From the IMG/VR virus record IMGVR_UViG_3300047561_000302, positions 1 through 63,122 of that record: 63,122 nucleotides of DNA, one strand, 5' to 3'. Under the pieces are notes generated by a model. It was not told the origin of the DNA. It worked only from the letters and a program-made list of their open reading frames with translations, and ran no database searches. Origin of the DNA: a virus (Duplodnaviria > Caudoviricetes). This document shows positions 1-63,122 of the stretch, one piece after another (position 1 is the stretch's first letter; each line of letters opens with the position of its first letter). The position numbers and the translations under genes are program-made.

Positions 1-30
1 CCCTTTGCCATAAATAACAATGACATCCAC
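1..30. repeat. Terminal overlap, copy 1 (circularisation signature)
   Basis: CCCTTTGCCATAAATAACAATGACATCCAC is 29/30 identical to 63093-63122. Confidence 0.95.
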
Positions 31-3666: not shown

Positions 3667-3680
3667 TTATACTCCAGTAT

Positions 3681-5864: not shown

Positions 5865-5866
5865 AT

Positions 5867-6286
5867 TTATTCTCCAATTGGTAATTCATAGGTTACCCAT
5901 AAAGCCTTGTAACCATCTTGTTCAAATACTTTTCCCCAGCCAGGTCTCCCGACTGATTCTATTCCGTCACATCCCATGTCTCTTCCAAATTTTTGGAGTA
6001 ACTTCAACATGGGGTCTTTCCATTCTTTTAACTCTATCCCACCACAAAAATGCATACTGAGCAGTTTTCTTTGTGGGTAAGTTACTATCTCTGTTACTAC
6101 TAAACCTTTAAATGTACCTTCATCATAAGCAACCCACAGCTGATAATTATCATCTTTAACACGGTCATAAATATTATTAGCCGTATATCTTCCGTAGGTA
6201 TATTTTGCTGCTTTCTCTGCAAAAGGTTCTATTTTATCCCAGCAAGTATCTACATACGCTGGGGGAATCATAGAAACTTCTATCAT
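5867..6286 (-). CDS. Putative GNAT-like protein of the ejection-protein cluster
   Basis: 139 aa; GCDGIESVGRPGWGKV pattern; position typical of podovirus core-assembly acetyltransferase-like genes. Confidence 0.5.
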   Translation of the reverse strand: MIEVSMIPPAYVDTCWDKIEPFAEKAAKYTYGRYTANNIYDRVKDDNYQLWVAYDEGTFKGLVVTEIVTYPQRKLLSMHFCGGIELKEWKDPMLKLLQKFGRDMGCDGIESVGRPGWGKVFEQDGYKALWVTYELPIGE

Positions 6287-8627: not shown

Positions 8628-11080
8628 CTGCGACCATCGTTTTTAATGTCAATACGTGGGCTACCTAACTGCCAAGCTACCCCTAAATTTTCTGAACTAA
8701 TCCTAAACGCCATTTGACGGCCTCTTAAACGGGTAAATACTTGGCCCGTAAACTGCTGAATGGTGTATTCAGGATACCTAACATAGTTATCAGCACTAGT
8801 TACTACTGGTATATCCGATTCTCCATAAGAAGAACCGCTGTTTTGGCGTGGCAATAGGGTCATTGTAACGCTAGGTTGATTTACGTTTGAGCCGTTAAAG
8901 TTTACGTCAGGAAGCATCCTCCAAACATATCCAAAGTTATGACCATCACCAATGTCAAAGTCAGAAGACTGAACATAGGAAGAAATAGGAAGGGTAGATG
9001 CCCCAGAAGCATCATCTGTACCAACTTCGTGGTAAATAACACGACCTAATGGGTTTCCTACGTCATCAACGCCATTCATAAATGTACCCATTGGGTTTTG
9101 ACGAATACCAGAATCAAGCCATGCAGTACGGTTAAGTGACCCGTAATACCAGACACGCTCTAGATAGTTATATATTACGTACTTATCAATGACTGGGTGT
9201 GAATTTCCTTGGCTTCCTGATTGGGATACATAGAACCACCATACTTCGTTGTAGCCCTCATTACCGCCACAGGTTACTTGGAACGCTTGGTCTTTGTTAA
9301 TATCCGCAAAGATGTATTGACGCAGTGCACAAGGAAGTGTTTCTACACGACCTGAATAAATATAGAACTTATCTGTACCCATCCAATAAGTAACATTGTT
9401 AATGGTAATAGCAGAATTTGGAGACATCACAGAGATGTTATCCATTAGGATATTGAATCCCCAAACATAAGGGGGTCCTAAATACTGCATAGAGTAGATA
9501 GCCGAATCAGTCCAAACCAAAATCTCTTGACGGGTCGATTTGGCGTTCATAATGTATGAACCGTTAGATAAACGGAACTCACCAGACTGGTTGGTTACTG
9601 AAGGCACCCAGTCGTAAGGGTTTTCTTGGTCTGACCAGCGAACCAACATAGGATCAAATACTGTATTTGCATCCCCAGAAAGATAAGAATTAGCACCAAA
9701 CGCAATTATAAATCGTTGAATTGCAGATGCAATAACAAGGTTTGTGCTATTTGGAACATAGTCACCACTAAAGCTTTTATCAGTAGATAAAACAGACAGA
9801 TATTCAGCACGATTTCCTACTCCATTATCTGCTGTCCAATAGAAAATAGGGCCACCACGAGGGGCAATAACAAGGTCTTGGCCATAGTTATCATTAGACC
9901 AAAGGCGTAATTGTTGACCAACACCAGCACCCGTATAAGCAACGCCCCATCCTTGGCTTCCTGATTGTTCAAGAACACCTACAGAAGATCCGCCACCAGT
10001 AGCATTAGATGTGGCAGTCGTATTTGGTAATGTAATTTTATAACTATTAGTAGCTGCATTTGCAATCTGGAAAGCTGAATTTAAAACAACTGCTGGTACA
10101 TTTCCAACCGCAGTAGCGCCAGAAAAGACTACATACGCTCCATTAGCTAGGCCATGAGCAGTTTGGGTTACTGTAACTACGTTACTGCTATTGTTAATAG
10201 TAAATGGATTAGCGCTTAAAGTAGCCGTAACACTGGTCACAGTACCTCCCCAAGGACCTGCGCCCCAGCCAGTACCTAAAGAATACACATCCAAACCAAC
10301 TGGATATTCATATTGAACCGTAACGTTGGCTACATTGGTAACGGAAGAAGTAGCGAAAGAAACGTTGGCAAGACTGTTATCAGAAGTAGATGCTAAGATA
10401 AAATCTAATCCTGGAGAGTATTTAAATACTTGGTGTTCTCCATTAATAACAGTGTTAGCTATACCGCCAACAGAAGAAATAGAACAATTTGAAAAAATAA
10501 CAAAGTCTTTATCATTGGCATCATTGTTAGTATCACGCCATAAAAAATAAGCGCTGGATATGTTTGATCCAGCCGTATGAGATGCGGCAGTTGTATTGGC
10601 ATAACCACGAATACAGCTTGAAGCTATGTTTGCCGATAAAGTATTGTAATAAATAATCTCTGAGCCAATTTTTACTATGCCAGCTTGCGTTGGAAAATTA
10701 GTAGCATTAGCCAATGAGAATGTTGTTACATTGGCATTAATAGTACTTATTAACGTAGTAAATCCAGTTGAAAGCGCATTTGTATAATTACTAGAAGTAA
10801 CAATAGGGGTAATGTCGTAATAAGTACCACCGTTTTCAATGTAGTACTTTAAGTTAGTTCCAAGACCCAATAAGTTAGAGCCATTTAAAGTAGCCCAATT
10901 CCATAATGAACGGCATACTCCCAAAAAATTAGATGCACTTAAACGTATCCAACCGCCAATCTTTTCTGGAAAGCCAGAACGAAATCGTATTTTGTCACCA
11001 TCATAGAAGCCACCCTCATTAGAGTAGTTAGTACCTTCTCGGTTTAATCCTGGGCGCAGTTGCAATTTTTGGAGTGGCAT
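8624..11080 (-). CDS. Tail tube / DNA stabilisation protein (P22 gp10 / T7 gp12-like)
   Basis: 818 aa, beta-rich; DPMLVRWSDQEN and NEVWWFY motifs; position. Confidence 0.7.
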   Translation of the reverse strand: MPLQKLQLRPGLNREGTNYSNEGGFYDGDKIRFRSGFPEKIGGWIRLSASNFLGVCRSLWNWATLNGSNLLGLGTNLKYYIENGGTYYDITPIVTSSNYTNALSTGFTTLISTINANVTTFSLANATNFPTQAGIVKIGSEIIYYNTLSANIASSCIRGYANTTAASHTAGSNISSAYFLWRDTNNDANDKDFVIFSNCSISSVGGIANTVINGEHQVFKYSPGLDFILASTSDNSLANVSFATSSVTNVANVTVQYEYPVGLDVYSLGTGWGAGPWGGTVTSVTATLSANPFTINNSSNVVTVTQTAHGLANGAYVVFSGATAVGNVPAVVLNSAFQIANAATNSYKITLPNTTATSNATGGGSSVGVLEQSGSQGWGVAYTGAGVGQQLRLWSNDNYGQDLVIAPRGGPIFYWTADNGVGNRAEYLSVLSTDKSFSGDYVPNSTNLVIASAIQRFIIAFGANSYLSGDANTVFDPMLVRWSDQENPYDWVPSVTNQSGEFRLSNGSYIMNAKSTRQEILVWTDSAIYSMQYLGPPYVWGFNILMDNISVMSPNSAITINNVTYWMGTDKFYIYSGRVETLPCALRQYIFADINKDQAFQVTCGGNEGYNEVWWFYVSQSGSQGNSHPVIDKYVIYNYLERVWYYGSLNRTAWLDSGIRQNPMGTFMNGVDDVGNPLGRVIYHEVGTDDASGASTLPISSYVQSSDFDIGDGHNFGYVWRMLPDVNFNGSNVNQPSVTMTLLPRQNSGSSYGESDIPVVTSADNYVRYPEYTIQQFTGQVFTRLRGRQMAFRISSENLGVAWQLGSPRIDIKNDGRR

Positions 11081-35687: not shown

Positions 35688-36608
35688 CTACCCCTTTTCA
35701 TTTGAAACGATGACGGGGGGGTTTCCTATATTAGGGTTTATACTAGTTGACACGTAAGTACTTGATTCTGCAGGATTTGTCACCCTAACATTGTTGGGGT
35801 GAGATTGGGGATTCGTTGAATGGGAACTCTCACTGTCTGGAATACTATGCAAGTTGGCTGAGGAAGGCTCGAGGCAAATATTGGGGGGCGGGGGTGAGTG
35901 GGTCTCGACAAATCCCGAATCGACAAGCCCATCCCCCTCGACATTACTAACACTGTTAGCCATAGCATCATCAGCTTCAGCATTTAGTTCATGAAGTAAG
36001 TCATCAGCTTCATAATCACTATCATCATCCCCAGTTATCTCAGCCAGTAATCTATCTGCTTCGTCTACATCTTCTACATCCTGATTGGATAATGCCAGCC
36101 GCAGGGATTGAATCAGCTTCTCTCGCATCTCGCCTGAGTCTGCGTTGATGTTGATCACCTCTCTGCGTTCAGTGAATGACTGGACTTCAGTAAGTTTCCC
36201 TATTAATTCCAGTGCTTTGAGTTGTTGCGTGTCCTTTACTTCAGGATCAATGGCCTTTTCCGTCAGTCTTTGTATCACCAATGCCCGAAGGTGCAGGGGC
36301 GTAGTATATTTCTGAGCCTCAATAGCCAGCCTGAAGGCATCTATCTGCGCCTGTATTCGGCTATCTCTTGCCAGTTCATTCCCTCGCCTACTCGCAGTCT
36401 TGGGTTTAGCCTGACTCTGCCTACCATTTGGCCTACTTCGCCTGTAAGACTCTGCTTTAGTTTTTCCAAGAGCCATTTCTTCCGCAAACTTGATTTGACT
36501 GTTTGTCAAAGAAGTTGTCTTGCTCTGAGCACCAATGAGTATTCTCTCCATTGGCATCTGGTCTAATACTTCTCTGACTTGCTTCCTGTTTAACTTAGGT
36601 ATCTTCAT
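35688..36608 (-). CDS. Putative terminase small subunit
   Basis: LTNSQIKFAEEMALGKTKAESYR HTH-like segment, QLKALELIGK; first gene of late operon. Confidence 0.65.
   Translation of the reverse strand: MKIPKLNRKQVREVLDQMPMERILIGAQSKTTSLTNSQIKFAEEMALGKTKAESYRRSRPNGRQSQAKPKTASRRGNELARDSRIQAQIDAFRLAIEAQKYTTPLHLRALVIQRLTEKAIDPEVKDTQQLKALELIGKLTEVQSFTERREVININADSGEMREKLIQSLRLALSNQDVEDVDEADRLLAEITGDDDSDYEADDLLHELNAEADDAMANSVSNVEGDGLVDSGFVETHSPPPPNICLEPSSANLHSIPDSESSHSTNPQSHPNNVRVTNPAESSTYVSTSINPNIGNPPVIVSNEKG
35780..35802. promoter_or_regulatory. Palindromic site copy B
   Basis: TCACCCTAACATTGTTGGGGTGA. Confidence 0.65.
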
Positions 36609-36658: not shown

Positions 36659-36681
36659 TGACACTAACAATGTTAGGGTGA
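36659..36681. promoter_or_regulatory. Palindromic site copy C, upstream of late operon
   Basis: Reverse complement is TCACCCTAACATTGTTAGTGTCA. Confidence 0.7.
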
Positions 36682-36896: not shown

Positions 36897-36928
36897 ACTT
36901 GACAGTCAAGTATTGTATGCTTGAGAAT
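36897..36928 (+). promoter_or_regulatory. Putative early sigma70 promoter with palindromic operator over the -35
   Basis: TTGACA at 36899-36904, GAGAAT 18 bp downstream; ACTTGAC-A-GTCAAGT perfect inverted repeat at 36897-36911. Confidence 0.55.
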
Positions 36929-36965: not shown

Positions 36966-36975
36966 CTGCTAGGAG
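36966..36975 (+). promoter_or_regulatory. Extended SD motif CTGCTAGGAG (candidate sRNA target 1)
   Basis: 6 nt upstream of ATG 36982. Confidence 0.75.
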
Positions 36976-37613: not shown

Positions 37614-37683
37614 TACCTACAAGCCCATGCACTGCGTGGGTTTGTGGATTATCAATCCTGATAGTCATAACTCTGCTAGGAGA
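37611..37683 (+). promoter_or_regulatory. Structured leader plus extended SD (candidate sRNA target 2)
   Basis: 14-bp hairpin 37617-37647, alternative hairpin 37647-37666, CTCTGCTAGGAGA at 37671-37683. Confidence 0.65.
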
Positions 37684-39136: not shown

Positions 39137-39198
39137 GTAATCCTGATGCCCTGATGGGCATTGGGATTGCCATTTTGCAATCATTAACTGCTAGGAGA
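39137..39198 (+). promoter_or_regulatory. Structured leader plus extended SD (candidate sRNA target 3)
   Basis: 15-bp hairpin 39137-39170, alternative GATTGC/GCAATC hairpin 39165-39182, CTGCTAGGAGA at 39188-39198. Confidence 0.65.
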
Positions 39199-39681: not shown

Positions 39682-39906
39682 ATGAATAGAGTAGAACATT
39701 TACTTAATGTTGCTTACAAAAACTTAAATGAAGAAATGCAAGAAGCATATCCAATGGTTGATCTTGATGAGGCCATTGGCTGTATAGCGGAAGCATTAGC
39801 CATTATTCATGGCGATCATGGTTCTTTTGACCAAGAACCTGAGAATGTGGACAAAGAGTTTTTTAATCGTATTACTAAAAATCTGCTAGGAGAAAGAAAT
39901 GCTTAA
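39682..39906 (+). CDS. Early hypothetical protein
   Basis: ATG 39682 after AAGGGG. Confidence 0.55.
   Translation: MNRVEHLLNVAYKNLNEEMQEAYPMVDLDEAIGCIAEALAIIHGDHGSFDQEPENVDKEFFNRITKNLLGERNA
39882..39893 (+). promoter_or_regulatory. Extended SD TCTGCTAGGAGA (candidate sRNA target 4)
   Basis: Upstream of ATG 39899, inside the 3' end of the previous gene. Confidence 0.7.
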
Positions 39907-45418: not shown

Positions 45419-45560
45419 TGTCATCCCCTGTATCTACCATGCCAGCAAAGGGAATGGGTTCGTACTGAGTCGGCTTAGTTTGCTCGACAGGTTTCCTGCC
45501 GAAGATGGCATCGAAATTGTCACGAAAGGAATCAGTGACTGGTTTTTGGTTCTCATTCAT
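45408..45560 (-). CDS. Small protein (50 aa)
   Basis: MNENQKPVTDSFRDNFDAIFGRKPVEQTKPTQYEPIPFAGMVDTGDDNEQ. Confidence 0.6.
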   Translation of the reverse strand: MNENQKPVTDSFRDNFDAIFGRKPVEQTKPTQYEPIPFAGMVDTGDDNEQ

Positions 45561-45589
45561 ACCCACACCCCTATATATACAGATATACC

Positions 45590-45857
45590 ACTAAGAAATC
45601 ACGGTTGCTTTTTGGTGAACGCACCCCTGCCATCCTGGAGTGCCTTCAACAGTTTGCTTTTTGGAGCCACTGCACCCGCCAGACGTGTCGACTTGAGGCT
45701 CTGGCTTCGCCACCTCTTCTCCTATTTCAAATCTATCCCACAGTAAGAGATCTTCCCATATCGCTGTTGTGTTGACCGACCAATATGGTGTAGCGGGGGA
45801 GCTGAAGTGTAGACAAAACGCAATTAAGCATTTTATCCACACGTCAACTTCCCTAGC
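45590..45857 (-). ncRNA. Candidate long structured leader/ncRNA upstream of replication genes
   Basis: About 24-bp 5' hairpin (45796-45853) and further stems CCAUAUUG/CGAUAUGG, GAGGU/GCCUC, GCACUCC/GGGGUGC; begins at predicted TSS. Confidence 0.5.
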
Positions 45858-45863
45858 CCATGT

Positions 45864-45892
45864 AGGTTAAATCAGAATAAAAATATTTGCAA
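45864..45892 (-). promoter_or_regulatory. Putative sigma70 promoter for leader and replication operon
   Basis: TTGCAA-17 bp-TAACCT. Confidence 0.6.
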
Positions 45893-45904
45893 CAGAAATT
45901 TACT

Positions 45905-46020
45905 AAAGGAAAACCCTCAGTTTTTTAGGCTGAGGGTTTTGGGATCATAGATCCGAGGGCTTGCATTGCACAAGTCTCTGCTAGGAGAGTTGACGTGCGT
46001 TACCAAGTGTGGGCTTGGTA
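45905..46020 (-). ncRNA. Candidate trans-acting antisense small RNA
   Basis: Own promoter and terminator; 5' hairpin UACCAAG/CUUGGUA; seed CACGUCAACUCUCCUAGCAGAG complementary to six sites in the genome. Confidence 0.65.
45910..45940. terminator. Bidirectional-type intrinsic terminator
   Basis: AAAACCCTCAG/CTGAGGGTTTT inverted repeat. Confidence 0.8.
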
Positions 46021-46025
46021 CACTA

Positions 46026-46053
46026 AATATACCATATTTTAAGGGAATGGCAA
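46026..46053 (-). promoter_or_regulatory. Putative promoter of the small RNA
   Basis: TTGCCA-16 bp-TATATT with extended -10 TGn. Confidence 0.65.
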
Positions 46054-46057
46054 CTAC

Positions 46058-46348
46058 CTATTGTGTTTTTAGGTAATTATTGTCAAATAACCAACTAATT
46101 GTCTTGCGGTGGGCTTCTTCCCACATCTCGACTCTTTCAGCCTTAGTAAGGGTTTTCCCTTGGTCTAGCTCAGAATGACAGGTAAAACACAGGGCAGCAA
46201 TCCTATAATCATGGGCTTTAATGCCTCTACCTTTGCCGTCACGGAGTTGATTTGAATGGGCAGCTACCACCGTCCCATTTTCAATCCCGCAGTGCTGGCA
46301 GGGGCTGTTTCGGACTGCCTCAATTAATCTCTGATTGCGATAAATCAG
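46058..46348 (-). CDS. His-Me/HNH-like nuclease (DUF1364/NinG-like), probable CTG start
   Basis: Frame open upstream of the track start: LIYRNQRLIEAVRNSPCQHCG...VVAAHSNQ..GKGRGIKAHD...ALCFTCH..LD. Confidence 0.7.
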   Translation of the reverse strand: MIYRNQRLIEAVRNSPCQHCGIENGTVVAAHSNQLRDGKGRGIKAHDYRIAALCFTCHSELDQGKTLTKAERVEMWEEAHRKTISWLFDNNYLKTQ

Positions 46349-48102: not shown

Positions 48103-48365
48103 TTTTGTTTTACCGCTGCGTAATCATTTAATGGGCTATAGCCTAACTTGTAACAGGTGCAGTGTTTGGCCATTACAGTTTCTACGCCAACCTCGCCTCC
48201 CCCAGCATATGCCGCAGCTTCGTATTGATTTTGTTTTACTGGGATATGCCGCTGTAAATCAGATAAATCTGCTTGCAATTGGCGTAACATAGCAGCGGCT
48301 TTCTCTCGTGTTCCACCAGGAAAATGTCCTTGCTCCAACAAATCAGCTAATTCGTTTGCGTTCAT
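48099..48365 (-). CDS. Hypothetical protein (MNANELAD family)
   Basis: AAAMLRQLQA motif. Confidence 0.6.
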   Translation of the reverse strand: MNANELADLLEQGHFPGGTREKAAAMLRQLQADLSDLQRHIPVKQNQYEAAAYAGGGEVGVETVMAKHCTCYKLGYSPLNDYAAVKQK

Positions 48366-54977: not shown

Positions 54978-54988
54978 TCTCCTAGCAG
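54978..54988 (-). promoter_or_regulatory. Extended SD CTGCTAGGAGA (candidate sRNA target 5)
   Basis: Directly upstream of ATG 54972. Confidence 0.75.
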
Positions 54989-55075: not shown

Positions 55076-55098
55076 TCACCCTAACAATGTTATAGTGA
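55076..55098. promoter_or_regulatory. Palindromic site copy D
   Basis: TCACCCTAACAATGTTATAGTGA, 4 nt upstream of ATG 55103. Confidence 0.65.
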
Positions 55099-55479: not shown

Positions 55480-55510
55480 GGGGGAGGACTCAAAACCCTC
55501 CCCTTTTTTT
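55480..55510 (+). terminator. Intrinsic terminator after rusA-like gene
   Basis: GGGGAGG/CCTCCCC stem followed by T7. Confidence 0.65.
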
Positions 55511-58500
55511 ACAGCCCAGCTTTCTTGCGAATTTCAATTACATTTTTAAGTATGTCATTTTTGGTTCGCTGCAAATCAGTCATTCTTTCACGTTTAGCGT
55601 CAGGTGACATTTCAGAAGATGGCAAATCAGATATTCTTCTAATCTCTGCATTAACTTTTTTCAATGGTGATTCAACGCCAGACGTATATCCATGAGCAAT
55701 AATTAAACCTTTATTTTCATTGAAATACTTCTTGGCTTCATCAGAACGTTGATTTTGGTTTAAGTTTTGGAATGTAGCGTATTTTTCATTTGCTCTATCT
55801 AACAAGTCGTAATACAAGTCTTCTCTGCCACGAGGAACTTCTCTAGCAATAAAAGCACCATACAACGGGTTCTTACGGTCTTCTGGCGTAACACGGTCAC
55901 CAGAGAATATATTAGAACCCCACATGACTGTAGCGCCTACAGTGCCAGTTAAACTACGAATTAAATGATCCGCCTCAATTGGATTAAGAGCTTTTTTATC
56001 GGTAAATGGAATAGGTGTCATGGCACTAATCATCTTACCAAGTTCAGAAGTTTCTGCCGTATATTGACGGAAATCCTCAAGTTTCTCTAAAGACCTAGGT
56101 GTAATGCTTCCACCAGTTAAGAAGTTATGATTAAACATAATCTCAACACCAGGCTTAATGGCTGTTGGGATTGGGTTTGGTCCTAATAACGCATCCATAG
56201 CACCTTCTTTTGCAGCTTTATAAAACCTAGTTCTATCTATTGAATATTTGGTTCCCTTGTTAATAATTTCATTTACTTGTAATTCTGGAAGACCTTTAAA
56301 GAAATACGCAGCAGAAGTATTCATTGGAACAAGCAAGCTCTTGCCAAAAACAGACTTAGGAATAAAGTAATTACGCATCTTTGTACTGTCATCAAGCTGT
56401 TGGTATTCATCATCATCGCCAACCGCAAGGGTATAAAGAATTGAAGTTGATGCCAACATAGACATTGCCCAAACCATCATTCCAAAAGCTCTAGCCCTAC
56501 TTTGACCTTTTAGTCCTCCTCCAGACAATGCCTGAGCAAGCACGTTAATTTGTTGGGCGTAAGCGTTCATAAAAGATACGTTACGGCTAAAGAACTGGGC
56601 TTGCTTTGAACTTCCACGTTTTAAAAAGTCAATTACATTATTGGCTTGCAATAATGCTTGCATTGGATCTTTAGTCTCTTTTAAAACACGTTTGTAAGTT
56701 GCCCTACGTTGAGAATAATCTGATGCATCACCAAAAAAATCTAATTTTTTAATTAAAGAATTAAAATTAGAATGATTCATAATTCCAATTTCTAGTTTCA
56801 ATTCTTTTTCTGGGCTTCTAGCATAAGATTGATACCCGCCTACACCAAAATCTTTCATCATATTAACAATTGGGTCATTTGGGCGCAAAGACTGGATAAA
56901 GCCATTAAATGTTTCAGCCCAAACCATTGCTGGGTTTTTAAGACCAGAAACTAATGCAGCTGTTTTAGAATCCATCCACATTTGGCGAACTTGAAATATT
57001 GGATTAATAGTTACAGATCTACGCAATCCATTGGCAATAAAAGCCATAGCATCATGCACAGGAATATCAATGCTTTCAAGACCTAGAACTGATTCTGCAA
57101 TTAATGGATCTTGAAACTCTACAATTACCCTACGACCATTCATTACAATATTTATTCGCACTGAACCGTCATTCATTACTCCTTCTTTAGGGAAGACCTT
57201 AATGCGGTTGCGCTGGTTGCGGGTTGCATATTCTTGGGCTACACGGTTGGCAGCATAATTTCTTGAAGCATTTTTAGACATTGTTATTACGTTTTCGCAC
57301 ATATTGTGCAAAATATTGTCTACTTGGCGAGTTGCTTTTCCTAATGGAAATGCTCTTGGCTGGGCTACATTAGTAAGGCCACGAACATTTTTCTTTACTG
57401 GTTGTGTATGCAAGTCTTCCATGTCATCCATAATGCGTTGCCAAGGCACATAGTCTTTAATTCCTTTTAATTGTTTATGACGAGCTTTACTAATTAATCC
57501 AGAGAACAACTGCATATCAAGCTGATTACGGTTAACATTAGTCCAGTTTTCCATAATAGTTTTAAGCTCTGGATGAACTTTATCTAGTTGAGAAAAATCT
57601 TCAATAGCCTCATCAGATTGCGTAATTTTGCCAAATGCTTTCTCAATGTCTTTAAGTTGTTTGGCTGCAATTTCTACGTTTTCGCCAGAATCTATGGAAT
57701 CTTGATAAGTTTGTTGACGGGCCAAGTATTCATTGATAATTGACTTAGAGCGTTTTGCCTCTAAATATTCATTAGTAATATCAGCTGCTTTTTGAGCTGG
57801 ATTAGGTTTTCCTTCTTTTTTTAATCGTTTTATAAGCGCTGATTCAGCTTGGAATACATTAGTCATTGAGAACTTAGACTTTTGTGCTCTAAATGATTGA
57901 AACACTGGATCAAAAACAAATGCGCCCTGTTGCAAAACTCGTGCTCCAACGTGGCCACCTCTAAGCGCATAGGTTACTGCAATAGATGCTATTGCTCGAT
58001 TGTTTCCGTCACGCAGCTGTCCTTCATAGCGATCAATATCTGCACTTTCTAAGCCTTTTCCAAACCACACATACTTATTAAGAACATAAGTAAGGCCACG
58101 ATCAACTTGGCCAACAGCCTTTGGAACAGTCAATAAACCATCTTTAAGGCTCATATTGCGAATCTTATTTACATCAACAATGCCCATTACTTTATCTAAT
58201 AAGCCTTGATCCATCTCTACAGGGGTATGATTGCGTTTATGTTTAATTAATAATTCATTAATATCAGATTCGTCTTTGGGGGCAATAGATTTCTTCGGAG
58301 CTGTTGCATTAATGTAGTCATTCAACGTCTCTTTGGAAATCTTAGGTTTGTTAATTACGTCATTAAACAGGCGATGAATGTCATTTTTGTTATCCATGCC
58401 AATAACGTTTTTAAGCGCCTCAAACAGCCCTTTAACAAAGTTTTGGAACCGCTTCCATGCACCGCCAAGGAAAGCCTTCATCATTGGCTCTGCGTTAATA

Positions 58501-61500
58501 GCCCAGAACTCTGATGGGGAAATCAGCTGGTAGTACTTCTCATACTGGCCTTCAGGAATGGCACGAACCGCATCTTCAAAACGGCTTTCAGACGGTATTG
58601 CCAAGAACGCACGAACAGCTTTAAAGAATTGATTACCTTCATCTGTCTTCTCAGCTGCCTCTTGAGCATCTAACTTCTTGCGCCAGTCTCCCACAAGCTT
58701 CTCTTTGGCTTCTTTAGACATCGCCATCTCTAGGGCGTGGGTTAACTCATGACGCAGGGTAGCTGGGTTAGTTACCCCTTTAGTGCCAGAATACAAGGCA
58801 ACAATGTTATCTATCATTTCGCCAGCAGTTTCAAAATTAGAGTTTGGATTCAAGGACTCTGGGCGAATCTGAAGCTTTAAACCATTTAGTACATTAGGAC
58901 TCTTCTTAGCCAAGTAATCAATTACATTGAACACTTCATCATTAATAGAGCCAAGATTACGAGCATTATTAGCCCAGCTAACTAACTCATCTGCCTTTAA
59001 TCCTGTTGGAGAGTACTTAGCCTTCTCCTTCATGGAGTTAACCTTCTCAATCACAATCTCACGGTTCTCATTTTGATTTGAGATTGGAGACATACTCTTG
59101 ATTGGAGGCGTAGGCGCAAACATCTCACGAGCCTTATCGGTTCTAGTGAGCGCTACTAAACCCAGCTCTCTTTCGTTAATTACATAATCAATGGCTGCCT
59201 TAGCTTTTTCTTCATCATAGACATACACAGTCATGTCTGAACCACGTTTATAAAAATCTTGGCCTAGAGCATTGGTTAATTGTGGGTCTAAAAAGAATGT
59301 ACCACCTACTTTTTTAGATGCTGGAACAGTAAATATTGTTTGGTTTCCACGTTTATGGATTCGCAGAACACCATCTTTAGTTCCCATTTCCCCGCCAATT
59401 TCATTGAGGAACTTCATAGCATCATCGGCAGTTTTTAGTTTTACTGGGGCTTCTTTTTCGGCTTTGGCAAAGTCAAATGTACGAGGCTGTAACACGCCCT
59501 GACTGTCTGAACCATCTTTTTTGGTGTAAGTAATAATTTGACCTGGGTATTGAGCATAGCCAGCCAAGATATTTCCTGTTACCATCCAGCGTTTTTCAGT
59601 ACGCTCATTTGCGCCACGGTCAAACATATCAACAATTTTGGTTTCTTCAAATTGTTGATTTTCATAATTGAAAATTGTTCCGTAACCTGTTTTTTCTATT
59701 GAATAACGTTTTCCTATTTGAGAAAAATTAAAAGTTAAACTCTTAGAATCACCATTGGCAATACCAAATTGCATTTTCCAATCAGAGCCAGCCGCAGGGT
59801 TTGCAGTACGTTTGTTATTAGCAATATCAAGAATTACACCATAAAACGGTACGCCATTTTCATCTTTGATGGTAACCGATAGACCTACTCTGTAATTATT
59901 AAGAATAGTTTTTACATGGTTGTAACCGATGTTAAGTTGACCACGCATAGTTTCAACTTTAACTGGGTCTAGATTATCTTCGGATATTTTGGCAATTCTT
60001 TCATCAAAATACACTTTGTATCTTTCAGACAAATCACGAACCATATCTTCAGCCAATTGAGATGATTGTTTATCTCCAAGGTTTTTCTTGGCAATTTCTG
60101 TTAATTCATCTTTGGTGTATGGTTTGACAGTACGTTTAACCTCTACTTGTTCCATATAGGCGGGAGAAGAAAATATAGAATCTACGCCTTTATCTTCAGT
60201 AATTGGTTTTGAAGATAATGTTTGAGCTTGAAGGTCAACAGCTTTGGCTTCCAACTTATTGGTTCCCATGCTGTCTTCACGCTCAATCAATTCATTGTAT
60301 CTTTCAATAATGTCCGCATATACCTCTTCTTGTTTTTTCAGTGGAAGAATTGGTATGTATCCAGTTAGCTTGCGAATATCTTCTTCATTAGCCTCTTCTG
60401 AATTTTCTTTTATTTTTAATACATCAGATCCACCAAGATCACTTAATATTTCTGGGTTATCACTTAAAAATTCTTGGGCTACCTGACCACCGTAGTCATT
60501 CATAAAGTCCACTACGCCTTCAGCAGTTACTGAAGACTTGCGGGAAGCAGTAGTATTGGCGCTAAGAGATGCCATCTTTTTAAGCAATACAGCAGCTGGG
60601 CGCATCTCAGCAGGAATATCAGCCATTAACTGCGTGTATTCTGGTAATACAACCTGACCAGTCCTATTAATTCGGCCTAACATTTGGCTGTGAATATCAA
60701 TGTTTTTCTCAGCCTGAACAATAATCATATGACGCTTGTTCTTTTTCTTAAACTTTTCTGATGCGTGTAAAGAGATACCAGTAGAGCCAGCTTGGTTAAG
60801 AATGATTACGTCAGTATCGCTATTGTTAAAGCCCTTAATGGCTGAAAATTTTTGTTTTGGAGTAGATATTCTTGATGCCAGCAATGGAACACCAGAAGAA
60901 GAATCAATAACAAGAGTTCTTCCTGTAATTTCAGCAGTTTTGTAACCAGCTTTATTTAGCTCATTGTGCATATAGTCAATGGGTGATATTGGCGCTGAAC
61001 CAAAATTTGAATTAAGAATTTTTTGTTTAATTGCATTAAACATCGACAGTATTTCTGGTCCAAGCTCTTCGTCTGTCAATCTACGTTTTTTTCCAATCTT
61101 TTCCCCAGGAGCTTTTACAGAAATCTCACGTTGTTTTTCAAGAAAACGAACGTATAAATCAGAAAACGAAATATTAATTTCATCTCCAGTTTTAATATTA
61201 TTGTCCGCTGCAAAATCTTTTAAGAATGAACCCATTGTATTGGACACTGTTAAAACAACTTTTTCACCATTTTTAATGTTTTCAATTGCCATATTTACGG
61301 CATCTTTAACTTTTAGTGACAATAACATTTGGTCAATCAAATTGTGCATGATTGATCCAAAATTTGAAGAGGTAACTTGCGCTTTTTCTCCGCCAACTTC
61401 TCTAGCTACTGCTCCAGATCTATCTAATTCATCTTTGAGGTTTTTAATTGCCTTGCGTTTTGCTCTAGAAAAAGAAAGTATGTTACTCATAGCAGTAGCC

Positions 61501-63122
61501 ATATTTTCTGCTACTTCTTTGTTTACTACGGCATCAGCTGTGCTGTAATTGATTCCAGCAAATGATCTTTCTCTTCGAATCATTTGACCGTCTTGAACAA
61601 GCATATTTGCAACAATCTGTTGCATTGGTATGCCACCGTGCTTAATGGCAGAAGATAAATCTTTTATGTCATCAACTGCCAACTTCATGTTTGTACTAGA
61701 GTACAAACTCATTATCTCTGGTCGTGTTGCATAGGTAGCTGATGAAAAAAACGATCCAAAAGAATTATTAACTAAATTTCTAAAGAAAGTTGCTCTTCCT
61801 GCAACAGTTTCCTCTCCTTCGGGAGCTGTAGTTTTTTTAGATTTTTCTTCTGTTTCGCCACCAGCTGTATGGCTTTCATCTAAAATAATGTAATTGTCAG
61901 CACCAAAAGTACGCAAGAATTTTTGACGTTCTGTAGGCTTTTTATCTACGTTTTGCGCTTGGCTATAAAGACTAAAAATAACTTTATATCTGCCAATATT
62001 TTCATCCTTAATCATTTGATTAAGCATTTTGTCAAAAGCTGCTTTATCGGAATAAGGAGCTTTTAATGTGTATTCAGTTTCTTCTGGCTCACCATTTACC
62101 ATGCGAGTCAAAACATATGGAACCTTTTTGTCGTGGTTTGTAATTAAGATTTTTGGATTGTTGGTATTTAATCCAAGTTCTTCAGTCATACCAATATCAT
62201 CCAAATCACGGATCATATCTGCATATAAGCTAATATTTTGTGTAACAAATATTGGAATCTTTCCGTTTTCAATTGCATACTTAATCATGGATGCAACAGC
62301 ACGGCCCTTACCAATACCTGTTTGGTCAGCAATAATAAATCCACTACCTTTTTCAGCGTTCATTATTGATAAACCAAGAGAATCAATCTGTTCTGCTGAA
62401 AGTTGATCCATTGCTTCTTGAAGGCTTAACCCTAGATTTTTAGAAACATACTCATCAATGTTTCCTTTTTTCTCTTGTAAGTCTTTTAAAGCTTTATCAA
62501 TATATGGGCGCATTGCAATTGGAACTAAAGTTCCAACTGAAGTTGCCTTAGATGCAGGATTGTAAGTAACCTGTAATGCGGTTTCTTTTTCAAGGCCCCT
62601 GCGTTCTGTTATTGTAGACTTGACACGCTCACTTGGTCGTTCGCTAGGCTCACCCACTCTTTCAGATTTACGCTCTTCAGCGCTTGTTCTGCCACTGGGT
62701 TCGACTCTTTCGCCTCCCCTTGATACGGGTCCTTCTCCAACTGGTTTGACAACGTTAGGAAGGTTATCAGATTCAGGTTGTTTTTTACTAGGTTCTCCCC
62801 TATCTGAAATGGGTCGCTCTCTGGTGGAAGCTCCAGAAACTCGCTCGCTGACAGGCTCGCCTGTTCTGGGTTGCTTTCCTTCTGCGCTAACTCGCTCACC
62901 CTCTCCGACAGCGCCTCTACCCACATTTTGTAGTCCACCTTCCCCTGGGGCACTAACACCGATGTCAGTTCTGCTGGGGCTAGTAGCCCCTCTGGATACC
63001 ATGCGACTAGCTTCATTTAGTTTTCCTTTCAATTGCTCATAAGAGCTAATGACTTCTGGCAGATCTGCAGCTGGCAGTTTTCTGCTTGATTCCCCTTTGC
63101 CATTAATAACAATGACATCCAC
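55509..63122 (-). CDS. C-terminal part of giant polyvalent protein: Strawberry-notch-like SF2 helicase, HExxH zincin-like domain, LPD38-like tail
   Basis: IADQTGIGKGR, ILDESH, SSATY, GSTGISLHA, QMLGRINRTGQ; TLRHELTHALE...SEFWA; continuous with 1..3666. Confidence 0.85.
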   Translation of the reverse strand: MDVIVINGKGESSRKLPAADLPEVISSYEQLKGKLNEASRMVSRGATSPSRTDIGVSAPGEGGLQNVGRGAVGEGERVSAEGKQPRTGEPVSERVSGASTRERPISDRGEPSKKQPESDNLPNVVKPVGEGPVSRGGERVEPSGRTSAEERKSERVGEPSERPSERVKSTITERRGLEKETALQVTYNPASKATSVGTLVPIAMRPYIDKALKDLQEKKGNIDEYVSKNLGLSLQEAMDQLSAEQIDSLGLSIMNAEKGSGFIIADQTGIGKGRAVASMIKYAIENGKIPIFVTQNISLYADMIRDLDDIGMTEELGLNTNNPKILITNHDKKVPYVLTRMVNGEPEETEYTLKAPYSDKAAFDKMLNQMIKDENIGRYKVIFSLYSQAQNVDKKPTERQKFLRTFGADNYIILDESHTAGGETEEKSKKTTAPEGEETVAGRATFFRNLVNNSFGSFFSSATYATRPEIMSLYSSTNMKLAVDDIKDLSSAIKHGGIPMQQIVANMLVQDGQMIRRERSFAGINYSTADAVVNKEVAENMATAMSNILSFSRAKRKAIKNLKDELDRSGAVAREVGGEKAQVTSSNFGSIMHNLIDQMLLSLKVKDAVNMAIENIKNGEKVVLTVSNTMGSFLKDFAADNNIKTGDEINISFSDLYVRFLEKQREISVKAPGEKIGKKRRLTDEELGPEILSMFNAIKQKILNSNFGSAPISPIDYMHNELNKAGYKTAEITGRTLVIDSSSGVPLLASRISTPKQKFSAIKGFNNSDTDVIILNQAGSTGISLHASEKFKKKNKRHMIIVQAEKNIDIHSQMLGRINRTGQVVLPEYTQLMADIPAEMRPAAVLLKKMASLSANTTASRKSSVTAEGVVDFMNDYGGQVAQEFLSDNPEILSDLGGSDVLKIKENSEEANEEDIRKLTGYIPILPLKKQEEVYADIIERYNELIEREDSMGTNKLEAKAVDLQAQTLSSKPITEDKGVDSIFSSPAYMEQVEVKRTVKPYTKDELTEIAKKNLGDKQSSQLAEDMVRDLSERYKVYFDERIAKISEDNLDPVKVETMRGQLNIGYNHVKTILNNYRVGLSVTIKDENGVPFYGVILDIANNKRTANPAAGSDWKMQFGIANGDSKSLTFNFSQIGKRYSIEKTGYGTIFNYENQQFEETKIVDMFDRGANERTEKRWMVTGNILAGYAQYPGQIITYTKKDGSDSQGVLQPRTFDFAKAEKEAPVKLKTADDAMKFLNEIGGEMGTKDGVLRIHKRGNQTIFTVPASKKVGGTFFLDPQLTNALGQDFYKRGSDMTVYVYDEEKAKAAIDYVINERELGLVALTRTDKAREMFAPTPPIKSMSPISNQNENREIVIEKVNSMKEKAKYSPTGLKADELVSWANNARNLGSINDEVFNVIDYLAKKSPNVLNGLKLQIRPESLNPNSNFETAGEMIDNIVALYSGTKGVTNPATLRHELTHALEMAMSKEAKEKLVGDWRKKLDAQEAAEKTDEGNQFFKAVRAFLAIPSESRFEDAVRAIPEGQYEKYYQLISPSEFWAINAEPMMKAFLGGAWKRFQNFVKGLFEALKNVIGMDNKNDIHRLFNDVINKPKISKETLNDYINATAPKKSIAPKDESDINELLIKHKRNHTPVEMDQGLLDKVMGIVDVNKIRNMSLKDGLLTVPKAVGQVDRGLTYVLNKYVWFGKGLESADIDRYEGQLRDGNNRAIASIAVTYALRGGHVGARVLQQGAFVFDPVFQSFRAQKSKFSMTNVFQAESALIKRLKKEGKPNPAQKAADITNEYLEAKRSKSIINEYLARQQTYQDSIDSGENVEIAAKQLKDIEKAFGKITQSDEAIEDFSQLDKVHPELKTIMENWTNVNRNQLDMQLFSGLISKARHKQLKGIKDYVPWQRIMDDMEDLHTQPVKKNVRGLTNVAQPRAFPLGKATRQVDNILHNMCENVITMSKNASRNYAANRVAQEYATRNQRNRIKVFPKEGVMNDGSVRINIVMNGRRVIVEFQDPLIAESVLGLESIDIPVHDAMAFIANGLRRSVTINPIFQVRQMWMDSKTAALVSGLKNPAMVWAETFNGFIQSLRPNDPIVNMMKDFGVGGYQSYARSPEKELKLEIGIMNHSNFNSLIKKLDFFGDASDYSQRRATYKRVLKETKDPMQALLQANNVIDFLKRGSSKQAQFFSRNVSFMNAYAQQINVLAQALSGGGLKGQSRARAFGMMVWAMSMLASTSILYTLAVGDDDEYQQLDDSTKMRNYFIPKSVFGKSLLVPMNTSAAYFFKGLPELQVNEIINKGTKYSIDRTRFYKAAKEGAMDALLGPNPIPTAIKPGVEIMFNHNFLTGGSITPRSLEKLEDFRQYTAETSELGKMISAMTPIPFTDKKALNPIEADHLIRSLTGTVGATVMWGSNIFSGDRVTPEDRKNPLYGAFIAREVPRGREDLYYDLLDRANEKYATFQNLNQNQRSDEAKKYFNENKGLIIAHGYTSGVESPLKKVNAEIRRISDLPSSEMSPDAKRERMTDLQRTKNDILKNVIEIRKKAGL
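63093..63122. repeat. Terminal overlap, copy 2
   Basis: 29/30 identical to 1-30 (T at 63104 versus A at 12). Confidence 0.95.

What the first reader, a model, noticed from the sequence alone, without database searches (positions are those of the whole stretch)
45905..46053. Candidate phage master-switch sRNA that is antisense to a shared extended Shine-Dalgarno motif
Seen: a self-contained minus-strand unit with promoter TTGCCA-16-TATATT (extended -10), a 5' hairpin (UACCAAG/CUUGGUA), a central seed CGCACGUCAACUCUCCUAGCAGAG, two small hairpins and an 11-bp terminator stem. The seed is perfectly complementary over 10-13 nt to the RBS of five genes (36966, 37671, 39188, 39882 on plus; 54978 on minus). 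It also pairs at 17 of 18 positions (one G-U, one mismatch) with the first nucleotides of the downstream replication-leader transcript (45857-45840). The targets include the first gene of both divergent early arms. Established: P1 C4 and P4 CI RNAs give RNA-based immunity by pairing with short targets. Inference: one ~115-nt RNA coordinately silences early, recombination and replication genes, perhaps replacing a CI repressor, which I do not recognise here.
Basis: partly seen in the sequence, partly recalled or inferred. Interest (0 to 1): 0.9.

Follow-up and report, generated by a model that had tools for sequence, protein, structure and literature searches.

The report
Phage antisense sRNA with co-evolving targets
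An uncultured phage carries a small RNA gene whose exposed loop is complementary to a special tag on the ribosome-binding sites of its early genes and to the start of its replication-gene transcript, and these partners have changed together across dozens of related phages, so the pairing is almost certainly functional.

Summary
At 46053-45905 (minus strand) there is a promoter, a ~116-nt structured RNA and a terminator. A model of this RNA matches 48 related viral loci (39 distinct sequences).

The RNA has an invariant, predicted-accessible core, CCUAGCAG. A hypervariable 9-12 nt stretch lies just 5' of it.

Core plus variable stretch pair with the first ~20 nt of the next transcript. That transcript is the leader of the ParB/helicase/primase operon and contains the Rfam Betaproteobacteria-1 RNA. 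In 28 distinct sRNA/leader pairs the cognate duplexes are much stronger than non-cognate ones (0 of 100000 permutations as good).

The core is also complementary to CUGCUAGGAG, which sits 6-7 nt before five early-gene start codons (6 exact copies in the window, 0.08 expected). In a sister clade the sRNA core is CCUAGCGG and the tag is CCGCUAGGAG. A third sRNA scaffold shows the same core in a hairpin loop. One relative has neither sRNA nor tag.

It works like P1/P7 C4 or P4 CI RNA but matches no Rfam family. Repression, expression and any immunity role are inferred, not shown. I found no integrase and no prophage copy. The scan has no note of this element on other DNA.

The parts
46026..46053 (-). 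sRNA promoter: -35 TTGCCA (46053-46048), 16-nt spacer, extended -10 TGgTATATT (-10 hexamer 46031-46026)
   Evidence: A TTGnnn-16..18-TAnnnT site is found upstream of 32 of 39 distinct homologous loci, 30 of them with TG. The other 7 have near-variants.
45905..46020 (-). sRNA of about 116 nt (new RNA family, model R1)
   Evidence: Fold z = -5.47. R1 matches 48 loci. Structure on 16 sequences: 87.4% of cells paired, 11 pairs changed on both sides, 0 of 500 shuffles as high. No Rfam family matches it.
46001..46020 (-). 5' hairpin H1 (UACCAAG / CUUGGUA)
   Evidence: Relatives carry GUCAG/CUGAC or GUCGAUU/AAUCUGAC instead. Register shifts lower the count (64.6% paired).
45986..45994 (-). Hypervariable specificity stretch of the seed (GUCAACUCU here)
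   Evidence: Highest column entropy in the RNA. It co-varies with the leader 5' arm.
45978..45985 (-). Invariant seed core CCUAGCAG, complementary to the CUGCUAGG tag
   Evidence: Invariant in all 34 contigs found through the scaffold alone. Entropy 0-1. Mean unpaired probability 0.67 against 0.44 for the rest, more open in 37 of 39 sRNAs.
45968..45998 (-). Stem GCACG/UGUGC that closes the loop holding the seed
   Evidence: Helix 2 is 95% paired. It is replaced by GCCGUC/GACGGC in L008 and by GUCCA/UGGAC in L021.
45942..45954 (-). Small hairpin GGAUC-UAU-GAUCC
   Evidence: It becomes GGUGA/UCACC in L004/L005/L019/L008.
45905..45940 (-). Intrinsic terminator: 11-bp stem and U tail
   Evidence: Helix 5 is 100% paired, with 5 pairs changed on both sides.
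45864..45892 (-). Second promoter P2: TTGCAA (45892-45887), 17-nt spacer, TAACCT (45869-45864)
   Evidence: TTGC[AT][AG]-16..18-TAnnnT lies within 75 nt after the terminator in 36 of 39 loci.
45838..45857 (-). Extended sRNA target: 5' end and 5' arm of the leader hairpin (GCUAGGGAAGUUGACGUGUG)
   Evidence: Cognate-versus-non-cognate tests.
45794..45859 (-). 5'-terminal leader hairpin of about 65 nt; its 3' arm resembles the sRNA seed
   Evidence: In 33 of 36 distinct leaders the first 30 nt form at least 12 pairs with later bases; mean z = -4.5.
45674..45790 (-). Betaproteobacteria-1 RNA (RF02932), the body of the P2 leader
   Evidence: 97.1 bits against a gathering score of 49.4. Also found downstream of the sRNA in 3 of 5 and 12 of 15 related loci searched.
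36966..36975 (+). RBS tag CTGCTAGGAG, 6 nt before ATG 36982 (129 aa, first gene of the plus arm)
   Evidence: A TTGACA-18-GAGAAT promoter lies upstream at 36899-36928.
37673..37682 (+). RBS tag, 7 nt before TTG 37690 (DUF6876 protein); 13-nt match to the sRNA
   Evidence: -25.1 kcal/mol.
39188..39197 (+). RBS tag, 6 nt before ATG 39204 (155 aa)
   Evidence: -22.0 kcal/mol.
39883..39892 (+). RBS tag, 6 nt before ATG 39899 (61 aa)
   Evidence: -25.9 kcal/mol.
54979..54988 (-). RBS tag, 6 nt before ATG 54972 (74 aa, first gene of the minus early arm)
   Evidence: -24.8 kcal/mol. TTGACA-17-CATACT lies upstream (read).

Best explanation
This is a real gene for a trans-acting antisense sRNA of about 116 nt. 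It is transcribed from its own strong sigma-70-type promoter and ended by its own terminator. A weak stem closes a loop that presents a two-part seed.

(1) The invariant core CCUAGCAG (CUCCUAGCAG in this phage) pairs with a lineage-specific tag, CUGCUAGGAG, that includes the Shine-Dalgarno sequence of a changeable set of early genes. Five genes carry it here. Pairing most likely blocks ribosome binding.

(2) The core plus a hypervariable 9-16 nt extension pairs with the first 20-26 nt of the next transcript. That stretch is the 5' arm of a long 5'-terminal hairpin, which precedes the Betaproteobacteria-1 RNA and the ParB-like/helicase/primase genes. The sRNA competes with the hairpin's own 3' arm. 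It most likely lowers expression of the replication module, either by opening a protective 5' hairpin and creating a duplex that nucleases can cut, or by refolding the leader.

The variable extension acts as a specificity determinant that differs even between very close relatives, as with immunity or incompatibility types.

Shown: the elements exist, they are conserved, and they co-vary. Inferred: that the RNA is made, that it represses, and what it does for the phage.
For: The sRNA unit is conserved and structured.
- The fold has z = -5.47.
- Model R1 matches 48 loci, 39 of them distinct.
- On 16 sequences, 87.4% of cells are paired and 11 pairs changed on both sides. 0 of 500 shuffles reach this, and slid controls give 29-51% paired.
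- Promoters and terminators are kept.

The seed and the leader have co-evolved.
- With 15 pairs, cognate duplexes average -30.5 against -21.6 kcal/mol for non-cognate ones.
- With 28 distinct pairs and the constant core removed, the figures are -14.5 against -7.9 kcal/mol, and 0 of 100000 permutations are as good. With the core included they are -30.3 against -21.7, again 0 of 100000.
- Six further loci that the automatic leader-finder missed also pair, by eye. They show G-U wobbles in both orientations, for example the same leader with two different sRNAs in L029 and L045.
- In the window the leader is the best genome-wide partner.
- The target is the 5' arm of a hairpin in 33 of 36 distinct leaders.

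The core and the RBS tag go together.
- There are 6 exact tags against 0.08 expected.
- Of 83 CTGCTAGG copies in the window plus 21 loci (about 10 expected at uniform composition), 59 lie at ribosome-binding sites, 16 are the antisense copy in the sRNA gene, 3 lie at the leader 5' end and 5 lie elsewhere.
- The core is invariant beside a hypervariable neighbour and is predicted open.
- In clade L021/L012/L013 the sRNA core is CCUAGCGG. The tags there are CCGCUAGGAG at 5 of 7 sites in L021, mostly on genes unrelated to those tagged here. Five of the 13 best non-self duplex partners in L021 are tagged ribosome-binding sites.
- A third scaffold, in records G006, L068 and L081, presents CCUCCUAGCAG in a hairpin loop.
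- Record G007 (97% complete) has neither an R1 match nor the tag on either strand.
- Tags lie downstream of sigma-70-like promoters, inside 5' untranslated regions.
Against: - There is no evidence of transcription. No RNA run held the stretch, and the runs that were laid are contigs only.
- The core-tag co-variation rests on one substitution event between clades. Both changes go from A/T to G/C in a clade of higher G+C.
- The universal core-tag pairing is only 8 nt, and 10-13 nt in this phage.
- The 2 nt on either side of the core show no flank co-variation with the tags (my reading).
- Record G001 (100% complete) keeps the sRNA but has no exact 10-mer tag and only about 3 near-tags.
- One locus, L033, has an sRNA that does not match its own leader (-6.0 kcal/mol, row rank 15 of 28). 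L017 and L061 pair only through an A/U-rich 14-bp stretch.
- The leader does not keep a leader peptide, so what pairing achieves there is open (my reading).
- In the window's partition-function fold, blocking the 5' arm did not change the predicted openness of the first gene's RBS (0.36 in both cases).
Confidence: 0.65

Rival explanations
1. The sRNA regulates only the replication-operon leader. The CUGCUAGGAG tag on early genes is read by something else, such as an RNA-binding protein, a nuclease or the ribosome. The sRNA matches it only because the leader's 5' end carries a copy of the same tag.
For: - Leader pairing is far stronger than tag pairing: -33.5 against -22 to -26 kcal/mol.
- Flanks of the core do not co-vary with tag flanks (my reading).
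- G001 keeps the sRNA with few tags.
Against: - In most leaders the 5' end reads GGGCUAGG or GUGCUAGG, without the CU. The sRNA nevertheless keeps CAG invariant.
- Clade L021 has the sRNA and tags but no Betaproteobacteria-1 RNA and no extended leader target, and its core changed in step with the tags.
- The third scaffold, in G006, sits elsewhere in the genome, upstream of a RusA-like gene, and has only the core in its loop.
Confidence: 0.2
2. The direction of control is reversed. The abundant leader 5' end, or the tagged mRNAs, soak up the sRNA. Firing of P2 would then relieve repression of the tagged early genes, rather than the sRNA controlling replication genes.
For: The leader has the strongest complementarity and lies at the very 5' end of its transcript. 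It encodes no conserved peptide at that site (my reading).
Against: The target is locked in a stable hairpin in 33 of 36 distinct leaders. This fits a regulated mRNA element as well as a sponge. No data on RNA abundance exist.
Confidence: 0.1
3. The 10-mer is a DNA site, an operator or a phage-specific promoter resembling the T7 ...TATAGGGAGA type (recalled). It works in either orientation, and the copy in the sRNA gene is simply one more site.
For: - The motif is nearly palindromic: CTGCTAGCAG would be a perfect palindrome.
- A change in a protein's specificity would also alter all sites together, as seen in the L021 clade.
Against: - 59 of 83 copies sit at a fixed 3-10 nt before start codons in the gene's orientation.
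- The tags lie downstream of sigma-70-like promoters.
- No T7-type RNA polymerase domain was found, though that control rang nowhere and so is weak.
- In three unrelated scaffolds the inverted copy always sits in the loop of a promoter-hairpin-terminator unit.
- A DNA site does not explain the 20-26-nt variable complementarity with G-U pairs.
Confidence: 0.05
4. There is no separate sRNA. Read-through from the upstream promoter makes one long leader, and the seed and target form a long-range helix within that single molecule.
For: The seed and target are on the same strand, about 130 nt apart.
Against: - A conserved 11-bp terminator with a U tail lies between them (100% paired, 5 pairs changed on both sides).
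- A conserved second promoter also lies between them (36 of 39 loci).
- Clades with the sRNA but no adjacent target exist.
Confidence: 0.05

Closest known systems
C4 antisense RNA of phages P1 and P7 (immI region)
   Same: - It is a short structured RNA encoded upstream of its target, on the same strand and without overlap.
- It pairs through loop sequences with sites around a ribosome-binding site and blocks translation.
- Differences in the complementary stretches make P1 and P7 heteroimmune (passage read in the review PMC12197685).
- Here, likewise, the complementary stretches differ between close relatives and match only their own partner.
   Different: - There is no Rfam match to any family other than the neighbouring Betaproteobacteria-1.
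- This RNA has its own promoter and terminator. C4 is cut out of the operon transcript (recalled).
- The seed has two parts: an invariant core aimed at many tagged genes and a variable arm aimed at one leader.
- The extended target heads a replication module rather than an antirepressor gene.
- No sign of lysogeny was found.
CI RNA of satellite phage P4 (and the CA RNA of N15)
   Same: These are RNA-only immunity factors that pair with short sites on an early or replication-related transcript of the same element. Specificity is set by the complementary sequences (recalled; no paper read here).
   Different: - They act by premature transcription termination and are processed from the target transcript (recalled).
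- Here the target is the extreme 5' end of a separately promoted transcript.
- Several ribosome-binding sites are also matched.
- There is no sequence or structure match in Rfam.
Plasmid copy-control antisense RNAs (ColE1 RNA I/RNA II, R1 CopA/CopT)
   Same: An antisense RNA pairs with the 5' stem-loop of a long structured leader or pre-primer that controls replication functions. The paired sequences define incompatibility types (recalled).
   Different: Those RNAs are transcribed from the opposite strand of their target, so complementarity is automatic. Here the sRNA and its target are separate same-strand sequences that must co-evolve, and they do.
Bacterial multi-target sRNAs with C/U-rich seeds that pair with Shine-Dalgarno regions (for example RsaE/RoxS; recalled)
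   Same: They have a conserved, accessible pyrimidine-rich seed, an intrinsic terminator, and many mRNA targets bound at the ribosome-binding site.
   Different: Here the targets carry a dedicated 5-nt extension (CUGCU) of the SD. It works as an address tag, is found on unrelated genes in different clades, and has changed together with the seed.

Membership tests
Rfam families of known phage/plasmid antisense RNAs (C4, P4 CI/IsrK-type, CopA, RNAI, ctRNAs) | Match to the family's covariance model | tested here: not met
   cmscan of the whole window at gathering thresholds gave only RF02932 at 45674-45790. A permissive scan of 45500-46150 up to E = 5 listed no such family over the sRNA.
P1/P7 C4-type antisense control | RNA encoded upstream of its target, on the same strand and without overlap, with loop sequences complementary to the target | tested here: met
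   The sRNA runs 46020-45905 and the target 45857-45838, both on the minus strand. The seed core is predicted open.
P1/P7 C4-type antisense control | RNA released from the operon transcript by processing (RNase P) | not testable with these tools
   The sequence shows an own promoter and terminator, which argues for a primary transcript. No RNA data were obtained.
P1/P7 C4-type antisense control | Specificity differences between relatives reside in the complementary stretches | tested here: met
   There are 28 distinct cognate pairs. The cognate partner ranks first in its row for 17 of the 28, and 0 of 100000 permutations are as good. A hypervariable island is seen.
Cis-encoded plasmid countertranscripts (CopA, RNA I) | Antisense gene overlaps its target on the opposite strand | tested here: not met
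   The sRNA and its target are on the same strand, separated by a terminator and a promoter.
Betaproteobacteria-1 RNA (RF02932) | Score at or above the gathering threshold over the element | tested here: not met
   The match (97.1 bits) covers 45674-45790 only. The sRNA lies about 115 nt upstream, outside the model. The neighbouring element is a member; the sRNA is not.
Trans-acting multi-target seed sRNA | Conserved accessible seed, intrinsic terminator, and seed-complementary sites at several ribosome-binding sites | tested here: met
Trans-acting multi-target seed sRNA | Dependence on an RNA chaperone (Hfq/ProQ) and measurable repression | not testable with these tools

The most novel reading that the evidence does not exclude
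A lineage of uncultured, probably freshwater phages runs early-gene and replication control through RNA pairing with two layers.

Layer 1 is an invariant anti-tag loop. It lets any newly acquired gene join the regulon simply by carrying the CUGCU extension of its Shine-Dalgarno sequence.

Layer 2 is a hypervariable arm. It co-evolves with the 5' hairpin of the replication leader (the orphan Rfam Betaproteobacteria-1 RNA) and splits the lineage into dozens of mutually blind RNA immunity or incompatibility types. These would decide the outcome of co-infection without a classical protein repressor.
Probability: 0.25. Interest if true: 0.9.

Novelty: new variant of a known kind. Interest (0 to 1): 0.75.

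Why it matters
- Few phage-encoded regulatory RNAs with known targets exist, and nearly all come from a handful of enterobacterial model phages.
- Here comparative sequence alone defines a new sRNA family, its seed, one high-affinity target and a probable regulon in an uncultured phage group.
- It gives the orphan Rfam family Betaproteobacteria-1 a context: it is the body of a replication-operon leader whose 5' hairpin is an antisense target.
- The many naturally occurring cognate pairs are a ready-made set of orthogonal sRNA/target pairs. They also offer a direct way to test whether RNA pairing sets immunity or incompatibility types among environmental phages.

Tried and rejected
- Expression: the look-up of sequencing runs listed no RNA holder. 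Laying X1, X2, X3 and X7 gave only contigs, probably DNA, mostly over the conserved Betaproteobacteria-1 part. This says nothing on expression, strand or ends.
- Cultured relatives: no DNA match in the phage collection for the intergenic region (distant mode) or for 30001-55000 (near mode). The best helicase relative is an uncultured record at 58.5% identity, and its locus has no R1 match.
- Plus-strand short ORF after 45978: rejected. It is 15 codons here and 9-65 codons or absent in relatives.
- Leader peptide after GCUAGGAG in the P2 transcript: rejected. Several relatives have no start codon at a usable distance (my reading).
- Prophage copies: the sRNA pattern hit one MAG contig in genome contigs. 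R1 does not match there, and about 0.6 chance hits are expected by my arithmetic, so it is a chance match.
- Lysogeny genes: no tyrosine or serine recombinase was found.
- T7-type RNA polymerase: no match, but that search rang in no control genome, so it is weak evidence.
- Relay model: the idea was that the freed 3' arm of the leader hairpin then closes the first gene's RBS. It appears in one constrained minimum-energy fold but not in the ensemble (0.36 against 0.36), so I do not claim it.
- The strong predicted duplex at 48208 (minus strand, -29.1 kcal/mol) lies in G-rich coding sequence and is not at an RBS. I treat it as chance.
- Core variants within the window's scaffold: none. All 34 contigs found through the scaffold alone carry CCTAGCAG.
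- Betaproteobacteria-1 in print: the text search found three unrelated papers. The main text of Weinberg et al. 2017 (PMC5737381; 'find' passages read) does not mention it.
- Novelty in print: I ran no literature search for this sRNA itself. The claim rests on the Rfam scans and the absence of close cultured relatives.
Full report
**What the window is.** It is a 63,122-base IMG/VR virus record rated 99% complete, with 41.8% G+C. No Rfam family matches the candidate sRNA; the only hit in the window is a neighbouring element. Terminase and structural genes fill about 1-36.6 kb on the minus strand. An arm of small genes runs on the plus strand from 36.98 to 41.5 kb. A long minus-strand arm carries, in order of transcription:
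- a 74-aa ORF, an exonuclease and an ERF recombinase;
- a radical-SAM enzyme, a methyltransferase and glycosyltransferases;
- a 74-aa sigma-region-4/HTH protein and a YbcO/HNH-like nuclease;
- the intergenic region under study;
- four small ORFs, a ParB-like protein, a helicase and a primase.

**Observation.**
- The promoter TTGCCA-16-(TGg)TATATT is the best sigma-70-like site within 2.5 kb.
- The 116-nt RNA folds at -36.9 kcal/mol, z = -5.47.
- CTGCTAGGAG occurs six times exactly against 0.08 expected. Five copies lie 6-7 nt before start codons of genes in the two early arms. The sixth is the complement of the sRNA seed.
- The seed pairs with the start of the next transcript over 19 pairs at -33.2 kcal/mol.
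- Apart from the sRNA gene's own opposite strand, that site is the best duplex partner in the whole window (-33.5 kcal/mol; background mean -9.5, sd 3.6).
- Tagged ribosome-binding sites at 39883, 37673, 54988 and 39188 are also among the 25 best. The 10-nt site at 36966 is not.

**Relatives.**
- The helicase gave 21 related viral loci, and the intergenic region is recognisable in 15 of them.
- A pattern taken from the conserved part of the sRNA found 45 viral contigs.
- A covariance model built from 15 sequences (R1) matched 48 loci, 39 of them distinct.
- On the 16 first-found sequences the proposed structure is 87.4% paired, with 11 pairs changed on both sides. 0 of 500 shuffles reach this, and slid controls give 29-51% paired. 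That alignment was fitted to the model, which favours the structure.
- Helices contain G-U pairs that would be C-A on the other strand. The plus-strand ORF is not conserved. The minus strand is therefore the functional one.
- Promoter-like sequences precede 32 of 39 distinct loci under a strict pattern, and the rest have near-variants. A second promoter follows the terminator in 36 of 39.

**Anatomy of the seed.** Column entropy shows an invariant CCUAGCAG directly 3' of the most variable stretch of the RNA. All 34 contigs recovered through the 3' scaffold alone carry this core. In partition-function folds the core is more open than the rest of the RNA in 37 of 39 distinct sRNAs (0.67 against 0.44). 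A short stem closes the loop: GCAC/GUGC here, GCCGUC/GACGGC in L008 and GUCCA/UGGAC in L021.

**Target 1: the leader.**
- The transcript from P2 begins with (G)GCUAGG followed by a variable stretch. Together these form the 5' arm of a 60-70-nt terminal hairpin. This holds in 33 of 36 distinct leaders, with mean z = -4.5.
- The sRNA's variable stretch is complementary to that arm in nearly every relative, although the sequences differ.
- With 28 distinct pairs and the constant core removed, cognate duplexes average -14.5 kcal/mol against -7.9 for non-cognate ones. 0 of 100000 permutations are as good. Searches give the same result on the first 15 and 14 pairs.
- Six loci missed by the automatic leader-finder also pair. 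They include G-U wobbles in both orientations, which fits RNA pairing and not a DNA inverted repeat.
- Exceptions: L033 does not match its own leader. L017 and L061 pair only through an A/U-rich 14-bp stretch.
- The window and L002 share 94% helicase identity and 87.6% identity across the intergenic region. Their variable stretches are nevertheless unrelated. This is the pattern expected of a specificity determinant.
- Downstream of the hairpin lies the Betaproteobacteria-1 RNA, here (97.1 bits) and in 3 of 5 and 12 of 15 related loci searched. L024, L031 and L033 carry a different, unnamed structured leader after the same kind of hairpin.

**Target 2: the RBS tag.**
- In the window plus 21 loci, 59 of 83 CTGCTAGG copies lie 3-10 nt before the start of an ORF of at least 40 codons. 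Sixteen are the antisense copy in the sRNA gene, 3 lie at leader 5' ends and 5 lie elsewhere.
- Most leaders read GGGCUAGG or GUGCUAGG, yet the sRNA keeps CAG invariant. The core is therefore constrained by something other than the leader.
- The decisive observation comes from clade L021/L012/L013. There R1 gives a weak match (23.9 and 22.4 bits) to a clearly homologous unit with promoter, 5' hairpin, closed loop, small hairpin and terminator. Its core is CUCCUAGCGG.
- In that clade the tags read CCGCUAGGAG at 5 of 7 sites in L021. The others are UCGCUAGGAG and, at the ParB gene, ACGCUAGGAG.
- Apart from ParB, the tagged genes there are unrelated to those tagged in the window's clade.
- That clade has no Betaproteobacteria-1 RNA and no extended target. 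Five of the 13 best non-self partners of its sRNA are tagged ribosome-binding sites.
- A third scaffold, in G006, L068 and L081, presents (A/U)CCUCCUAGCAG in a hairpin loop between a strong promoter and a terminator. In G006 it sits beside a RusA-like gene rather than the ParB gene.
- G007, 97% complete, has neither an R1 match nor the tag on either strand.
- Weak points: there is only one compensatory event. Both changes go from A/T to G/C in a G+C-richer clade. Universal pairing is only 8 nt. G001 keeps the sRNA with few tags.

**Mechanism.**
- Shown: the elements, their conservation, their co-variation and the predicted accessibility of the core.
- Inferred for the tags: pairing over the Shine-Dalgarno sequence should block ribosome binding at tagged genes.
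- Inferred for the leader: the sRNA competes with the hairpin's 3' arm, which itself resembles the seed. This opens a 5'-terminal hairpin and creates a 20-26-bp duplex. By analogy with known antisense systems this lowers expression, but activation or a sponge role of the leader cannot be excluded.
- A relay in which the freed 3' arm closes the first gene's RBS appeared in one constrained fold only.

**Comparison with known systems.**
- In logic it is closest to the P1/P7 C4 RNA: an upstream, same-strand, non-overlapping antisense RNA that targets RBS regions, with specificity carried in the complementary stretches (passage in PMC12197685).
- It also resembles P4 CI RNA and plasmid copy-control RNAs (recalled).
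- It is not a member of any of these by Rfam, and it is not cis-encoded.
- New here are the two-part seed, the address-tag regulon, and the link to Betaproteobacteria-1.

**Lifestyle.** No tyrosine or serine recombinase was found. The only bacterial-genome hit to the sRNA pattern is a chance match. HTH proteins are encoded, and a 23-bp palindrome sits in both divergent control regions. These suggest DNA-level control exists as well. The 'replaces CI' idea is therefore unsupported.

**Verdict.** This is a real, conserved sRNA gene with one very well supported target and a well supported but not yet settled regulon. It is a new variant of phage antisense control. Interest 0.75.

Noticed in passing
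window 426-448, 35780-35802, 36659-36681, 55076-55098: A 23-bp palindrome built on CTAACAATGTTAGGGTGA occurs at four places (8 strand-matches with up to 3 mismatches; 0.04 expected). Two copies lie in the divergent control regions upstream of tagged first genes. It may be an operator or a parS-like site for the orphan ParB-like protein.
   Followed up: partly
window 46058-46348 (-): The YbcO/HNH-like nuclease frame is open for 96 codons, but the first ATG/GTG/TTG gives only 70. A CTG at 46348-46346, 6 nt after AAGGA and overlapping the upstream gene's stop codon, is a likely non-canonical or coupled start.
   Followed up: partly
L003 about 5990-6140, L004 about 10171-10321, L005 about 5473-5624, L019 about 5220-5369: Weak R1 matches (15.5-19 bits) downstream of the helicase/primase genes end in a terminator that is followed at once by CTGCTAGGTA. 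This may be a second, divergent sRNA-like unit or target. I found no counterpart in the window.
   Followed up: no
L024, L031, L033 (downstream of their sRNAs): The same sRNA and target-hairpin module is followed by a different conserved leader with no Rfam match, in place of the Betaproteobacteria-1 RNA.
   Followed up: no
L033 2274-2398 and its leader: This sRNA's variable stretch does not match its own leader, which is nearly identical to L031's. It may be a recombinant caught between specificity types.
   Followed up: no
L076 about 3590-4000, L068 about 5000-5400, L081 about 5790-6100: Another long conserved non-coding stretch (shared blocks such as ...GACGCATGGGCTTCGG.TGTCGAGA...) lies before the ParB-like gene in the clade that has the third sRNA scaffold. 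No Rfam search was run on it.
   Followed up: no
window 45600-45674 (-): Conservation of the leader continues about 75 nt beyond the 3' end of the Rfam Betaproteobacteria-1 model (alignment). The natural RNA element is probably longer than the 120-position model.
   Followed up: no
window 1-3666 and 55509-63122 (-): Two very long open frames run off the two ends of the record (1222 and 2537 codons). They may be one giant gene split by the contig break. Only an unknown-function PHROG matches the C-terminal third of the larger piece.
   Followed up: no
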